From: a virus
Taxonomy: Duplodnaviria > Heunggongvirae > Uroviricota > Caudoviricetes
DNA: 7,977 nt
Direction: 5' to 3' (one strand)
IMG/VR virus record: IMGVR_UViG_2545824714_000009
A model generated the notes under the pieces. The model was not told the origin of the DNA. It saw nothing but the letters and a program-made list of their open reading frames with translations, and made no database searches. Each line of letters starts with the position of its first letter. Positions within the stretch are counted from its first letter, which is position 1. Below are positions 3,138 to 7,977 of this stretch, one piece after another. The position numbers were made by a program, and so were the translations under genes.

Positions 3138-3830
3138 TTAATTATGTCTCTTAAGGGTTTGCGACTGACTGATTAAGACCTTTCCAAAGACCATGAATCG
3201 GTGTTCGTTTTCGCTAGTAATTCCCCATTCACGGTAAATCTGGTTATCAGAAATCACCAGCAGTTTGTCAGGAATCATTTGAAGTCTTTTAACGTATATT
3301 TTGTCATCAAAACCAAAGACATATATACCATCACCATCAAACTGATTGATGCTGACATCAACGAAGATGAGATCTCCGGGCTCAATGGTTGGACACATAC
3401 TGTCCCCACGAACGTTGATAACTTTGATGTGATTGGCTGGTCGTCCGCCGAACATTGATACAGCATTATCAGTTCTGTATTCGATGGCATGAATCACATC
3501 AATGACATCACCGCCCTGGATAAGGCCATTTCCCGCACTGGCACTGATATCCAGCATTTCAATACGGAACACATCCTTCACCTGCGCAACATCCTCATTA
3601 TTACTGTTTTTATATACAGTATTACTTTTGTGGGCAGAGGTAAAGAGATCAGCAATATCAACACCTAAGCTCTTGGCAATATTACTCAGTGTTTGTTCGG
3701 TAAATTGTTTTTGCTTACCCGTTTCTAAGCGCGAGATGTTCGCCGCATCTACTCCTATCGCTTCAGCGAGATCGGCGATTTTCATGTTCTTCGCTTGGCG
3801 AAGTTGTCTGACTCGGTTTCCTATGTTCAT
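3138..3830 (-). CDS. cI: CI-like prophage repressor: N-terminal XRE-type HTH plus C-terminal S24 (LexA-like) autopeptidase domain
   Basis: 230-aa ORF. N-terminus RVRQLRQAKNMKIADLAEAIGVDAANISRLETGKQ is an XRE-type HTH; there is an Ala-Gly candidate cleavage site (SASAGNG), a catalytic Ser in GDSM and a Lys in YVKRL. It is divergent from a Cro-like gene. No SD upstream; the -10/-35 spacing suggests a leaderless mRNA. Confidence 0.9.
   Translation of the reverse strand: MNIGNRVRQLRQAKNMKIADLAEAIGVDAANISRLETGKQKQFTEQTLSNIAKSLGVDIADLFTSAHKSNTVYKNSNNEDVAQVKDVFRIEMLDISASAGNGLIQGGDVIDVIHAIEYRTDNAVSMFGGRPANHIKVINVRGDSMCPTIEPGDLIFVDVSINQFDGDGIYVFGFDDKIYVKRLQMIPDKLLVISDNQIYREWGITSENEHRFMVFGKVLISQSQTLKRHN
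3602..3621. promoter_or_regulatory. Near-consensus LexA (SOS) box located inside the cI coding sequence
   Basis: TACTGTTTTTATATACAGTA matches the E. coli LexA box consensus TACTGTATATATATACAGTA at 18 of 20 positions, with intact CTGT-N8-ACAG. It is the only CTGT-N8-ACAG in the window and encodes TVYKNS in the CI inter-domain linker. Confidence 0.45.
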
Positions 3831-6020: not shown

Positions 6021-6509
6021 ATGAGTCTTTTGAATGACGTTCAGAAATTCATTGAAGCCCATCCGGGCTGTACTTCCGGAGATATTGCGGATGCTTTTGC
6101 CGGTTACTCACGGCAGCGCGTTCTGCAGTCAGCAAGCAAGTTACGTCAGAGTGGGCGTGTGGCTCACCGTTGTGAAGGAGATACACGCAGACATTTCCCG
6201 CGCCTGACTGAGAGAGCGCAGGAACCGGAACCACAACCAGTTCGTGAAACCAGACCTGTGCGCAATTTCTATGTCGGCACTAACGATCCCCGTGTGATTT
6301 TGTGCCTGACCCGCCAGGCGGAAGAACTGGAGTCCAGGGGCTTATACCGTCGTGCTGCAACCGTGTGGATGGCGGCATTCCGTGAAAGCCACTCCCAGCC
6401 AGAACGAAACAATTTTCTGACGCGTCGTGAGCGGTGCTTACGGAAAAGCAGCAAGCGCGCTGCATCGGGTGAAGAGTGGTATCTGTCAGGGAATTACGTG
6501 GGGGCTTAA
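6021..6509 (+). CDS. Regulator with PerC/Pch-like C-terminal region and an N-terminal winged-helix-like extension
   Basis: ATG at 6021, 3 nt after the replication gene stop, with a G-rich SD. The motif AEELESRGLYRRAATVWMAAF…RRERCLRK resembles the PerC/Pch signature as I recall it; the N-terminal ~45 aa look like a small winged helix. The track's start at 6015 is a GTG that overlaps the upstream stop. Confidence 0.7.
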   Translation: MSLLNDVQKFIEAHPGCTSGDIADAFAGYSRQRVLQSASKLRQSGRVAHRCEGDTRRHFPRLTERAQEPEPQPVRETRPVRNFYVGTNDPRVILCLTRQAEELESRGLYRRAATVWMAAFRESHSQPERNNFLTRRERCLRKSSKRAASGEEWYLSGNYVGA

Positions 6510-7162
6510 TGAGTAATAAATATTGCCAGGCGCTGGTGGAACTGCGGAACAAACCAGCCCATGAACTGAAGGAAGTGGGCGATCAGTGGCGCACGCCGGA
6601 CAACATTTTCTGGGGAATTAACACCCTGTTTGGCCCGTTTGTTCTGGATCTGTTCACTGACGGTGATAACGCCAAATGTGCCGCGTATTACACGGCGGAA
6701 GACAACGCGCTGGCGCATGACTGGTCAGAACGTCTTGCGGAGCTTAAAGGTGCTGCCTTTGGTAATCCCCCATACAGCCGCGCCAGTCAGCATGAGGGGC
6801 AATACATCACCGGCATGCGTTACATCATGAAACATGCCAGTGCCATGCGTGATAAGGGCGGGCGCTATGTTTTCCTGATCAAAGCTGCCACCAGCGAAGT
6901 GTGGTGGCCGGAAGATGCAGATCATATTGCTTTTATTCGCGGGCGTATTGGTTTTGAACTGCCTGTCTGGTTTATCCCGAAAGACGAGAAGCAGGTACCG
7001 ACAGGAGCTTTTTTCGCTGGTGCTATTGCTGTTTTTGACAAGACCTGGAAGGGACCGGCAATCAGCTACATCGGGCGCGATGAACTTGAGGCATGTGGTG
7101 AGGCGTTTCTGGCGCAGGTTCGCCAGCAGGCGGAAAAACTGGTCAGGGAGATGGCGGCATGA
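6509..7162 (+). CDS. Phage Dam-family DNA N6-adenine methyltransferase (orphan; no restriction partner in window)
   Basis: ATG at 6509 overlaps the upstream TAA (translational coupling; alternative GTG at 6476). Contains the NPPY catalytic motif (FGNPPYSR) and WRTPDNIFWG…FVLDLFTD, typical of phage Dam-type methyltransferases. Confidence 0.85.
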   Translation: MSNKYCQALVELRNKPAHELKEVGDQWRTPDNIFWGINTLFGPFVLDLFTDGDNAKCAAYYTAEDNALAHDWSERLAELKGAAFGNPPYSRASQHEGQYITGMRYIMKHASAMRDKGGRYVFLIKAATSEVWWPEDADHIAFIRGRIGFELPVWFIPKDEKQVPTGAFFAGAIAVFDKTWKGPAISYIGRDELEACGEAFLAQVRQQAEKLVREMAA

Positions 7163-7485
7163 CGACGTTAACTCAATGCCAGCAGCAGGTGCTGGATATG
7201 CTGATTTCTTATCAGAAAGAACGTGGCTTCCCGCCAACCAATCAGGAGGTGGCAACCATGCTGGGATACCGTTCGGTGAATGCAGCGGTGGAGCATCTTC
7301 GCGCACTGGAGAAAAAAGGCGTCATCACGATAAAGCGTGGCGTGGCCCGGGGGATAACGCTTCATACCGCGGTGAAGGACGACGACAGCGAGGCGGTCGG
7401 GATTATCCGCGCACTGCTTGCCGGTGAGGAAAACGCAAGGCTGCGTGCAACCCACTGGTTACATGAGAGGGACCTGAAAGTATGA
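7159..7485 (+). CDS. LexA N-terminal DNA-binding-domain homolog lacking the S24 autocleavage domain (108 aa)
   Basis: ATGA overlap with the Dam stop; AGGGAG 8 nt upstream. LTQCQQQVLDMLISYQKERGFPPTNQEVATMLGYRSVNAAVEHLRALEKKGVITIKRGVARGITL aligns closely with E. coli LexA residues ~5-70 ([65 protein letters not shown]), including the recognition-helix SxNAAxEHL. The following ~40 aa have no Ser/Lys peptidase motifs. Confidence 0.8.
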   Translation: MTTLTQCQQQVLDMLISYQKERGFPPTNQEVATMLGYRSVNAAVEHLRALEKKGVITIKRGVARGITLHTAVKDDDSEAVGIIRALLAGEENARLRATHWLHERDLKV

Positions 7486-7763
7486 AGCTGATCCTGCCTT
7501 TTCCGCCCAGCGTGAACACGTACTGGCGACACCCCAACAAAGGGGCGTTTGCTGGTAAGAGCCTGATAAGCGCGGCGGGGCGAAAATTCCAGAGCGCGGC
7601 GTGCGCAGCAATAGTTGAGCAGTTACGTCGTCTGCCGAAACCAACGTCGGCACCTGCTTCAGTGGAGATCGTGTTGTTTCCTCCGGATAGACGGGATGGA
7701 AAACCGCCGCCATCGCCTGAACTGGGAAATGAGCCGGGACAGGTGTTTGCGGCTTGGCAGTAA
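7482..7763 (+). pseudogene. rusA: RusA-like Holliday-junction resolvase, N-terminal ~72 aa only; catalytic DxD region missing
   Basis: ATGA overlap with the upstream stop. LPFPPSVNTYWRH…VEIVLFPPDRR matches the RusA N-terminus (LPWPPSNNRYYRH…IRIECHMPDRRRRDLDN), but after PDRRD the translation becomes GKPPPSPELGNEPGQVFAAWQ, lacking the catalytic Asp residues. This is consistent with an IS junction near 7698. Confidence 0.6.
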
Positions 7764-7977
7764 CCGGCTCATTTAAACCGTCTTGTCTGTTTCCTCCGGC
7801 TCTACAAAAATAATGTCCATCATTTTTAATGGACACTATCGTATGAAACACCGGACCTGGATCACTGAAGCTTTACGTCTTCACTTTGAAGAACATTTAC
7901 CCCGGGTTGTGGCCGGGCGTCGCCTGGGTGTACCAAAATCAACAGTTTGTAGTATGTTCGTGCGCTTTCGGAGAGCT
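7698..7977 (+). mobile_element. Left end of a second insertion sequence (probably IS21-family, distinct from the one at the window start); boundary approximate
   Basis: Placed where the RusA homology stops (~7698) through the start of a transposase-like ORF at 7843. CCGGCTC is repeated at 7764-7770 and 7795-7801. No confident terminal repeat identified. Confidence 0.35.
7843..7977 (+). CDS. Transposase N-terminus (HTH), probably IstA of an IS21-family element; 3' end outside the window
   Basis: ATG at 7843, open to the window end: MKHRTWITEALRLHFEEHLPRVVAGRRLGVPKSTVCSMFVRFRRA. The pattern resembles IstA N-termini of the IS1326/IS408 group as I recall them. Not in the ORF track because no stop falls inside the window. 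Confidence 0.45.
   Translation, partial: MKHRTWITEALRLHFEEHLPRVVAGRRLGVPKSTVCSMFVRFRRA

What the first reader, a model, noticed from the sequence alone, without database searches (positions are those of the whole stretch)
7159..7485. Phage-encoded LexA DNA-binding domain without the autocleavage domain
The first ~70 residues align closely with the E. coli LexA DNA-binding domain, including the recognition-helix residues. The remaining ~40 residues show no S24 Ser/Lys dyad or Ala-Gly cleavage site. Such a protein would be a non-cleavable LexA-box binder if it can dimerise through its C-terminal tail. Together with the consensus SOS box inside cI, it could keep a target repressed during the SOS response, or compete with host LexA. 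It is translationally coupled between the Dam methyltransferase and RusA genes.
Basis: partly seen in the sequence, partly recalled or inferred. Interest (0 to 1): 0.6.

Follow-up and report, generated by a model that had tools for sequence, protein, structure and literature searches.

The report
Prophage LexA-type DNA binder lacking protease
A very common E. coli prophage gene encodes a small protein made of the DNA-binding head of the SOS repressor LexA plus a short helical tail; databases already annotate it that way, but nobody has tested what it binds or does.

Summary
The ORF at 7159-7485 (+) is real and encodes 108 aa. Residues 1-65 match Pfam LexA_DNA_bind end to end (E 2.9e-19). They are 50% identical to E. 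coli LexA, and the model superimposes on DNA-bound LexA at 1.0 Å. There is no S24 protease domain.

Two details in the finding are wrong. Only four of the five LexA DNA-contact residues are kept (Glu44 is Val). An Ala88-Gly89 does exist and aligns with the LexA cleavage site, but relatives do not conserve it.

The tail is a conserved two-helix hairpin, probably for dimerisation. The whole protein defines an enterobacterial prophage family (PHROG 362). It occurs in 2233 of 5426 complete E. coli genomes and always sits in the delayed-early region upstream of RusA/DUF968/Q.

None of 134 family representatives has Glu44, and position 45 varies between subfamilies, so SOS-box specificity is unproven. 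The strong SOS box inside cI is real but travels with the cI allele, not with this gene; phage Kati has the gene and no SOS box.

I found no functional study. The only characterised analogue is GIL01 gp6, an independent LexA-DBD capture that activates a late promoter. Moderately interesting, not new as an object.

The parts
7159..7485 (+). Gene for the 108-aa short-form LexA-type protein (stop codon included)
   Evidence: ORF. Pfam LexA_DNA_bind E 2.9e-19. PHROG 362 matches full length, 1-108 against 106 positions, E 3.8e-59. 100% identical copies are annotated 'LexA family transcriptional regulator' in many E. coli genomes.
7159..7368 (+). Residues 1-70: LexA-type winged helix-turn-helix (H6-22, H28-35, H40-52, strands 56-58 and 66-68)
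   Evidence: AF2 model with mean pLDDT 82.9. Foldseek hit to 3jso at rmsd 1.0 Å, 68 columns, 50% identity. phmmer to 1lea E 6e-16.
7276..7314 (+). Residues 40-52: recognition helix (V-N-A-A-V-E-H-L-R-A-L-E-K). N41, A42 and E45 are kept and LexA Glu44 is replaced by Val. S39 lies just before it.
   Evidence: Alignments. Contact residues from PMC3091678. Family table.
7369..7389 (+). Residues 71-77: acidic, low-confidence linker (AVKDDDS)
   Evidence: pLDDT below 50 for residues 71-76. Length varies among relatives.
7390..7467 (+). Residues 78-103: conserved two-helix hairpin (H78-88, H93-103). It is the putative dimerisation element and contains Ala88-Gly89.
   Evidence: Block pLDDT about 87. 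A97 and L101 are invariant, A93 is nearly invariant, and hydrophobic residues are conserved at positions 82/83/86/87/100 across 30 diverse members. No structural match was found for the tail.
6509..7162 (+). Upstream gene: phage N-6-adenine methyltransferase (Dam). Its stop overlaps the start of the LexA-type gene (ATGA).
   Evidence: Pfam Dam E 9.7e-46 and TIGR01712 at 256 bits. RefSeq start mapped.
7482..7697 (+). Downstream gene: rusA. Its start overlaps the LexA-type stop (ATGA). This copy is truncated by an IS66-family insertion.
   Evidence: PHROG 34 RusA-like matches residues 1-72 only. Similarity to phages ends at about 7697. RefSeq annotates 'RusA ... missing C-terminus' followed by IS66 tnpA/B/C.
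3602..3621 (.). Near-consensus SOS box TACTGTTTTTATATACAGTA inside cI. It is real, but it is not shown to be a target of this protein.
   Evidence: The only exact CTGT-N8-ACAG in the window. It scores 27.5 bits on an SOS PWM against 7.0 for the next site. Shuffled 37-kb genomes reach 18 bits or more in 0.5% of trials.

Best explanation
The gene encodes a RecA-insensitive, LexA-derived DNA-binding regulator of SfV/SfII/mEp460-type lambdoid prophages.

Origin (inferred): a proteobacterial lexA was truncated just after the cleavage-site region. The remnant linker was remodelled into a two-helix hairpin.

Mechanism:
- Shown by sequence and model: an intact LexA winged helix, no protease domain, and a conserved helical tail.
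- Inferred: two hairpins pack into a four-helix bundle, giving a dimer that reads a palindromic operator with helix 3 (S39, N41, A42, V44, E45).
- Inferred: for the E. coli subfamily, which keeps four of five LexA contact residues, the operator is most likely SOS-box-like, built from CTGT-type half-sites.

Expression (inferred): the gene is translationally coupled within the delayed-early rep-perC-dam-lexA'-rusA-...-Q operon, so it is made after the prophage repressor has been inactivated.

Proposed effect (inferred): RecA* cannot remove it, so it would re-occupy LexA-type operators while host LexA is being destroyed. These would be host SOS promoters and the phage-borne boxes in cI, the late methylase and dinI.

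I put about 0.8 on the general part (a dimeric, uncleavable LexA-type DNA-binding regulator). I put about 0.4 on the specific claim that its operators are SOS-box-like.
For: - Domain content and fold.
- Four of five LexA contact residues are retained and the DBD is 50% identical.
- The tail is conserved across genera down to 38-50% identity.
- Synteny and 4-nt overlaps are the same in E. coli, Cronobacter and Salmonella prophages.
- A free LexA NTD can still repress (PMC10584840).
- Strong SOS-type boxes (20-27.5 bits) occur in six of the seven complete carrier phages examined.
- All 13 full-length phage records with the box-bearing cI allele also carry the gene.
- In Klebsiella prophages the gene lies just downstream of an SOS-boxed dinI.
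Against: - Glu44 is missing in all 134 short-form representatives but present in 10 of 12 full-length LexA proteins retrieved alongside them.
- Position 45 differs between subfamilies, although the host SOS box does not (established knowledge).
- Basic residues R7, R28, R34 and R67 are replaced.
- Phage Kati and the Cronobacter and Salmonella loci carry the gene with no SOS-like site.
- The phage-borne boxes are each explained more simply as host-LexA sites belonging to other modules.
- The cI-box association is one-way and the two loci are only about 3.3 kb apart, so linkage suffices.
- Dimerisation is untested.
- No experimental paper on this family was found.
Confidence: 0.4

Rival explanations
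1. It is a phage-specific transcription factor that has diverged from LexA to read its own operator, which is not the SOS box. It would repress or activate a phage promoter, for example timing late or Q-dependent expression, as GIL01 gp6 does.
For: - GIL01 gp6 is 44% identical to its host LexA DBD yet binds GaCACAnnTGTGaC and activates P3.
- Glu44 is lost family-wide, and positions 44/45 diversify by subfamily. That is the pattern expected for co-evolving operator specificities.
- The gene always lies just upstream of DUF968/Q and the late region.
- Carriers exist without any SOS box.
- The DNA-facing surface is remodelled.
Against: - I identified no candidate operator. Intergenic gaps in the module are only 8-19 nt, and no promoter-like site was found near the gene.
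- The E. coli subfamily keeps S39, N41, A42 and E45.
- The gene persists intact in a degraded prophage that has lost all late genes. That weakly argues against a role solely in late-gene activation.
Confidence: 0.35
2. It acts mainly through protein contacts rather than as an operator-specific regulator. It might titrate or modulate a host factor such as LexA, RecA* or ClpX through the tail, or act as a nucleoid-type binder with little sequence specificity.
For: - The tail is conserved but matches no known dimerisation domain.
- GIL01 shows that small phage proteins can act by binding LexA, as gp7 does.
- The gene neighbours dinI, a RecA modulator, in Klebsiella.
Against: - The most conserved residues are those of the DNA-reading surface: S39, N41, R64-G65-I66 in the wing, and K53. 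That implies selection for specific DNA binding.
- Host LexA dimerises through its CTD, which this protein lacks.
Confidence: 0.1
3. The Ala88-Gly89 is a genuine cleavage site cut in trans by an S24 protease (host LexA, UmuD or the phage CI). The protein would then be SOS-sensitive after all.
For: - HMMER aligns ALLAGE with LexA RVAAGE.
- Intermolecular cleavage by the LexA CTD is described in the older literature. This is my recollection of Kim and Little 1993, not checked here.
Against: - Ala-Gly is replaced by A-N, V-G, E-R, D-D, A-E, N-N and others in relatives.
- In the model it lies at the C-terminal end of a helix, not in a strand-loop as in LexA.
Confidence: 0.03

Closest known systems
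Host SOS repressor LexA (E. coli; PDB 1lea, 1jhh, 3jso; TIGR00498)
   Same: Same DNA-binding fold and clear homology: 50% identity over residues 1-70 with no gaps, rmsd 1.0 Å. S39, N41, A42, E45, H46, K53 and the wing R64-G65-I66 are conserved. A relic of the linker and cleavage-site region is still alignable up to residue 90.
   Different: No S24 catalytic and dimerisation domain and no Ser/Lys dyad. It scores 70.6 bits against the TIGR00498 cutoff of 110.95. Glu44 is Val, several basic residues are replaced, and a two-helix hairpin replaces the CTD. It is encoded in a phage early operon, not at the lexA locus.
GIL01 gp6 (Bacillus thuringiensis tectivirus), the only characterised LexA-DBD-only phage protein I found (PMC6182141)
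   Same: A phage-encoded protein consisting of a LexA_DNA_bind domain without a protease domain, expressed from an early operon.
   Different: No detectable pairwise similarity and a different PHROG, 3502 against 362. gp6 is 66 aa with no helical tail. It derives from a Firmicute LexA, binds a non-SOS palindrome and activates a late promoter. The function of the present protein is untested.
PHROG 362 / NCBI 'LexA family transcriptional regulator' / 'LexA DNA binding domain protein' (SfV orf42, SfII gp44, mEp460 gp46, Stx-phage pham 237)
   Same: This is the family the window protein belongs to, at 96-100% nucleotide identity and in the same position between dam and rusA.
   Different: None in sequence. 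The family carries only computed names ('transcriptional repressor', and erroneously 'SOS-response repressor and protease LexA' or 'RecA-mediated autopeptidases'), with no experiment behind them that I could find.
LexA N-terminal cleavage fragment (residues 1-84)
   Same: A DBD-only species that retains some SOS-box binding and repression (PMC10584840). This is what the phage protein would 'work like' under the best explanation.
   Different: Per PMC10584840 the fragment is recognised by ClpX and degraded by ClpXP. From memory, it is recognised through its new C-terminus and it dimerises poorly. The phage protein ends in ...RDLKV and carries a dedicated tail.

Membership tests
Canonical LexA repressor (TIGR00498) | N-terminal LexA_DNA_bind winged helix | tested here: met
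   PF01726 matches 1-65/65, E 2.9e-19. Foldseek hit to 3jso at rmsd 1.0 Å.
Canonical LexA repressor (TIGR00498) | C-terminal Peptidase_S24 domain with the Ser119/Lys156 dyad | tested here: not met
   No PF00717 hit. The protein ends at residue 108, and the window's cI serves as a positive control in the same call.
Canonical LexA repressor (TIGR00498) | Conserved Ala-Gly scissile bond in a cleavage-site loop | tested here: not met
   A88-G89 aligns with A84-G85, but relatives do not conserve it and it lies at a helix end in the model.
Canonical LexA repressor (TIGR00498) | Whole-protein score above the curated equivalog cutoff | tested here: not met
   70.6 bits against a cutoff of 110.95.
Canonical LexA repressor (TIGR00498) | All five DNA-contact residues of helix 3 (S39, N41, A42, E44, E45) | tested here: not met
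   Four of five are kept and E44 is V. 0 of 134 short forms have E44.
Canonical LexA repressor (TIGR00498) | Binds CTGT-N8-ACAG SOS boxes | not testable with these tools
   Needs EMSA, SPR or ChIP.
Enterobacterial prophage short-form LexA_DNA_bind family (PHROG 362) | Full-length match: winged helix plus a roughly 35-aa helical tail, 105-135 aa in total | tested here: met
   phrog_362 matches 1-108 against 1-106/106, E 3.8e-59. The tail aligns in members of nine genera.
Enterobacterial prophage short-form LexA_DNA_bind family (PHROG 362) | Location in the delayed-early (nin-like) region upstream of RusA and/or DUF968 and Q | tested here: met
GIL01 gp6-type late-gene activators (PHROG 3502) | LexA_DNA_bind domain only, phage-encoded | tested here: met
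GIL01 gp6-type late-gene activators (PHROG 3502) | Sequence relatedness to gp6 | tested here: not met
   BLASTP gives no alignment at E <= 100. Best PHROGs differ: gp6 scores 1.8e-21 for phrog_3502 but only 2.8e-05 for phrog_362.
GIL01 gp6-type late-gene activators (PHROG 3502) | Binds a non-SOS palindrome at -43.5 and activates a late promoter | not testable with these tools
   Needs reporter assays and footprinting. I found no candidate site.

The most novel reading that the evidence does not exclude
A RecA-proof LexA mimic carried by prophages in about 40% of E. coli genomes binds SOS boxes and re-silences LexA-controlled promoters once host LexA has been cleaved. Its targets would include the host SOS regulon, SOS-boxed prophage genes (cI-internal box, late methylase, dinI) and LexA-controlled antirepressors of rival prophages. 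Resident prophages, including Stx-converting ones, would then set the amplitude and duration of the host SOS response, with effects on mutagenesis, antibiotic tolerance and toxin-phage induction.
Probability: 0.2. Interest if true: 0.75.

Novelty: new member of a known kind. Interest (0 to 1): 0.4.

Why it matters
If the protein does bind SOS boxes, a very common prophage gene would be an uncleavable brake on the SOS response. It occurs in 2233 of 5426 complete E. coli genomes and in SfII, SfIV, SfV, mEp460, cdtI, and Stx2a, Stx2c and Stx2k phages. That would bear on stress-induced mutagenesis, persistence, Shiga-toxin phage induction and competition between co-resident prophages.

If it instead has its own operator, it is a second, independent case after GIL01 gp6 of a phage capturing the LexA DNA-binding head and re-tuning it. 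It would also be a missing regulator in the circuitry of SfV-type lambdoid phages.

Either way the question is cheap to settle experimentally. As a sequence object it is already catalogued, so the value lies in the untested function, not in the discovery of the gene.

Tried and rejected
Model coordinates are not exposed, so I could not inspect the interface.
2. The Zhang et al. 2010 LexA-DNA paper could not be read. Two other LexA papers lacked residue-level contacts. I rely on PMC3091678 for the list of contact residues, and the exact role of Glu44 stays undocumented here.
3. Literature searches for functional work on the enterobacterial family returned only cataloguing papers and GIL01.
4. 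I considered the Ala-Gly as a real cleavage site and rejected it on non-conservation and helical context.
5. I considered an obligate partnership with the cI SOS box and rejected it.
6. Defence-system membership was checked. PADLOC gave only a sub-threshold CARF-like hit for the winged helix.
7. Promoter scans found no sigma-70-like site near the gene or around the cI box.
8. I planned negative-control phages (lambda, HK97, P22) but fetched only 200-bp stubs by mistake. I dropped the control once Kati gave a within-carrier counter-example.
9. Read-through from the SOS-boxed dinI promoter in Klebsiella is inconclusive, because a terminator-like hairpin lies inside the annotated 5' end of the gene.
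Full report
**1. The observation**

The ORF lies at 7159..7485 on the + strand and encodes 108 aa. Its ATG overlaps the TGA of the upstream gene (ATGA at 7159-7162). Its own TGA overlaps the ATG of the downstream gene (ATGA at 7482-7485). GGAG-type ribosome-binding sequences lie a few bases upstream of both starts.

- Pfam LexA_DNA_bind covers residues 1-65 against model positions 1-65 of 65, E 2.9e-19, 69 bits against a gathering score of 23.7.
- Other winged-helix families (HTH_Crp_2, Rrf2) fall below their cutoffs.
- There is no Peptidase_S24 hit, whereas the window's cI repressor scores 6e-19 for S24 in the same call.
- NCBIfam's LexA equivalog matches residues 1-91 at 70.6 bits, below its 110.95 cutoff.
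- Against PDB sequences the best hits are the E. coli LexA DBD (1lea, E 6e-16) and full-length LexA.
- Identity to E. coli LexA is 35/70 with no gap.

An AlphaFold2 model built on 30 diverse family members has mean pLDDT 82.9. It shows H6-22, H28-35, H40-52 and a β-hairpin at 56-58/66-68, then a low-confidence acidic linker at 71-76, then two helices at 78-88 and 93-103. The winged helix superimposes on LexA in the LexA-DNA crystal structure 3jso at 1.0 Å over 68 residues. The tail has no structural match.

**2. Two corrections to the observation**

First, the DNA-contacting residues of LexA are given as Ser39, Asn41, Ala42, Glu44 and Glu45 (PMC3091678). The phage protein keeps S39, N41, A42 and E45 but has Val44. 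It also replaces R7, R28, R34 and R67 and gains K59 and R60 in the wing, with net charge unchanged.

Second, the tail does contain Ala88-Gly89, and HMMER aligns 'ALLAGE' with LexA 'RVAAGE', the A84-G85 scissile bond. So the gene looks like a lexA truncated just beyond the cleavage-site region. The dipeptide is not conserved, however. Relatives have A-N, V-G, E-R, D-D, A-E, N-N and others, and in the model it sits at the end of helix 78-88. I read it as a relic and helix cap, not a cleavage site.

**3. What it belongs to**

The whole 108 aa, tail included, matches PHROG 362 ('transcriptional repressor', 106 positions, E 3.8e-59).

The gene is very common:
- It occurs at 95% identity or more in 2233 of 5426 complete E. 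coli genomes. There it is annotated 'LexA family transcriptional regulator' or 'LexA family protein'.
- It occurs in 50 phage records, including SfV (orf42, 'unknown'), SfII, SfIV, mEp460, cdtI, and Stx2a, Stx2c and Stx2k converting phages.
- A survey of Stx phages lists it as 'pham 237, LexA family transcriptional regulator, pfam01726' in 15 phages (PMC8136144).

An exhaustive HMMER search and a profile search found full-length relatives at 38-60% identity. They come from prophages of Salmonella, Citrobacter, Cronobacter, Klebsiella, Enterobacter, Atlantibacter, Kosakonia and Hafnia. In a 30-sequence alignment the invariant positions are Q8, V11, G23, P25, P26, E30, G36, S39, N41, L50, K53, R64, G65, I66, A97 and L101. 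The tail keeps a hydrophobic pattern at positions 82/83/86/87/93/97/100/101. It is therefore a real, selected protein with a conserved second module.

**4. Context**

In E. coli and Shigella phages the gene order is cI, cro, cII-like, (antirepressor), replication, PerC, Dam, LexA-type gene, RusA, KilA-N, DUF968/HNH, Q, then lysis. Cronobacter and Salmonella prophages have the same order and the same 4-nt overlaps. Salmonella has an extra Dcm-type methylase in between.

In Klebsiella the order is an SOS-boxed promoter, dinI, a hypothetical gene, the LexA-type gene, a small ORF, DUF968, and later the lysis genes. The promoter reads TTGAAC-N16-TATACT, overlapping the box TACTGTTTATTTATACAGTA at 26.9 bits. 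A terminator-like hairpin inside the annotated 5' end of the Klebsiella gene makes read-through uncertain.

The constant feature is thus a delayed-early position just upstream of the Q and late region.

The window itself comes from a degraded CPS-53/KpLE1-like prophage next to a tRNA-Ser gene in ETEC-type strains. An IS66-family element cuts rusA at about 7697 and the late genes are gone, yet the LexA-type gene and cI are intact.

**5. Does it read SOS boxes?**

For:
- The similarity to LexA is high, and four of five contact residues are kept.
- A free LexA NTD retains some ability to bind SOS boxes and repress, and cells must degrade it for SOS activation (PMC10584840).

Against:
- Among 134 short-form cluster representatives, position 44 is never Glu (V 58, A 28, T 17, N 14, L 9, F 6, R 1, Y 1).
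- Position 45 is E in 84, D in 35, and L, A, G, T, I or N in the rest.
- By contrast, 10 of the 12 full-length LexA proteins in the same retrieval have Glu44.

All these hosts use the same SOS box (established knowledge). Diversification of the reading helix between subfamilies therefore looks more like operators co-evolving with their regulators.

The characterised precedent points the same way. GIL01 gp6 is 44% identical to its host LexA DBD, binds GaCACAnnTGTGaC overlapping the -35 of the late promoter P3, and activates it (PMC6182141). gp6 is not a relative of the present protein in any closer sense. BLASTP finds no alignment, gp6 belongs to PHROG 3502, and it is 66 aa without a tail. At least two phage lineages have thus captured a LexA DBD independently.

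**6. The SOS box inside cI and other phage-borne boxes**

CTGTTTTTATATACAG at 3604-3619 is the only exact CTGT-N8-ACAG in the window. With flanks it reads TACTGTTTTTATATACAGTA, which is 18/20 to the textbook consensus.

I scored sites with a PWM built from about 20 E. coli SOS boxes. The cI box scores 27.5 bits, as high as the best host boxes, while the next site in the window scores 7.0. Shuffled 37-kb genomes reach 18 bits or more in 0.5% of trials. The box is therefore real.

It lies about 210 nt into cI, in the linker codons T-V-Y-K-N-S, and no sigma-70-like promoter sits around it. The same box is in SfII, and a one-base variant is in mEp460.

Other strong boxes in carrier phages:
- At codons 3-9 of the late-region DNA methyltransferase in SfV, mEp460, 569R4 and a Stx2c phage (22.7 bits).
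- As tandem pairs upstream of dinI homologues in mEp460, SKA5 and the Stx2c phage.

Several observations argue against a link to the LexA-type gene:
- Phage Kati has the gene and nothing above 11.4 bits in 46 kb.
- The Cronobacter and Salmonella loci have nothing above 9.4 bits.
- The cI allele is in 1040 genomes against 2233 for the gene.
- 37 of 50 carrier phage records have other repressors.

The reverse does hold: all 13 full-length phage records with the box-bearing cI allele carry the gene. But the two loci are only about 3.3 kb apart in one mosaic block, so linkage is a sufficient explanation. The boxes are most simply host-LexA sites belonging to other modules. They remain candidate targets, no more.

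**7. Most likely mechanism, and how sure**

I put about 0.8 on the general statement. That statement is an uncleavable, LexA-derived, sequence-specific DNA-binding regulator that dimerises through its C-terminal hairpin and is made with the delayed-early genes.

On the target I commit, at about 0.4, to SOS-box-like operators for the E. coli subfamily. The protein would then re-occupy LexA-type sites after host LexA has been cleaved.

The rivals are:
- About 0.35: a gp6-like phage-specific regulator with its own operator.
- About 0.1: a factor acting mainly through protein contacts.
- About 0.03: a trans-cleavable substrate.

Shown: the domain content, the fold, the conservation, the synteny, the coupling signals, and the reality of the boxes. 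Inferred: dimerisation, operator identity, timing of expression, and physiological effect.

**8. Novelty and verdict**

Some records over-annotate it as 'SOS-response repressor and protease LexA' or 'RecA-mediated autopeptidases', which the domain content contradicts. I found no experimental study of this family in the searchable literature.

It is a member of a known kind, a phage LexA-DBD-only regulator, with a distinct tail and an independent origin. The interest is moderate. The family is extremely widespread, sits in medically relevant prophages, and poses a clear question that is cheap to test. Nothing in the sequence is by itself surprising to a specialist.

Noticed in passing
window 3602-3621 (inside cI, 3138-3830, minus strand): A near-consensus SOS box, TACTGTTTTTATATACAGTA, lies about 210 nt into the cI coding sequence, in the linker codons TVYKNS. 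It scores 27.5 bits, equal to the best host boxes. It is identical in SfII and has a one-base variant in mEp460. No sigma-70-like promoter was found around it, so what LexA would control there (roadblock, internal promoter or antisense promoter) is unexplained.
   Followed up: partly
L003:34170-34189 (SfV), L004:41021-41040 (mEp460), L005:12739-12758 (569R4), L014:16751-16770 (Stx2c phage): An identical strong SOS-type box, TACTGTAAAAATAAACAGTG (22.7 bits), starts 8 nt after the start codon of the late-region DNA methyltransferase gene between Q and the holin. This suggests LexA control of that methylase in lysogens.
   Followed up: partly
window ~7698-7977 and 1-351: rusA is truncated at about 7697 by an IS66-family element (tnpA/B/C in the matching RefSeq genomes), and the prophage's late genes are missing. 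The left end of the window (ORF 100-285) looks like the C-terminus of an IS21-family IstB. This is my own reading, because the Pfam call that included it failed on another sequence. It interrupts yfdR, and it is absent from the otherwise identical genomes.
   Followed up: partly
window 6509-7162; RefSeq phage records NC_019716, NC_003444, NC_021857: The Dam methyltransferase (Pfam Dam E 1e-45, TIGR01712 256 bits) is named 'phosphoadenosine phosphosulfate reductase' in RefSeq phage records. This apparently follows PHROG 33262, a fused family. Likewise the 108-aa LexA-type protein is named 'SOS-response repressor and protease LexA' or 'RecA-mediated autopeptidases' in some records, although it has no protease domain.
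   Followed up: yes
proteins P0130, P0131, P0148, P0150, P0153, P0156, P0159 and others: Many metagenomic proteins of 140-350 aa match the query in two separate stretches. They would be tandem LexA_DNA_bind domains in one chain, possibly single-chain 'dimers' that dispense with a dimerisation domain.
   Followed up: no
L006:6001-6393 with hairpin at 6034-6066 (Klebsiella prophage): The 130-aa Klebsiella form has a non-conserved N-terminal extension whose coding DNA contains a 13-bp terminator-like hairpin followed by a T-rich tract. The true start may be downstream (a 109-aa variant, P0261, exists), and the hairpin may separate the SOS-controlled dinI unit from the LexA-type gene.
   Followed up: partly
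L006-L008:1-1542 (Klebsiella prophage loci): A gene pair with Pfam AAA_15/AAA_21 and DUF4435 lies upstream of the dinI/LexA-type region. From memory, this domain pair resembles the PARIS anti-phage system.
   Followed up: no
L004:23255-23302 (mEp460), L015:19364-19411 (SKA5), L014:49747-49794 (Stx2c phage): Tandem SOS boxes (20-24 bits each, 28 nt apart) precede prophage dinI homologues in several carriers of the gene. These phages therefore also encode a second potential SOS modulator under LexA control.
   Followed up: partly
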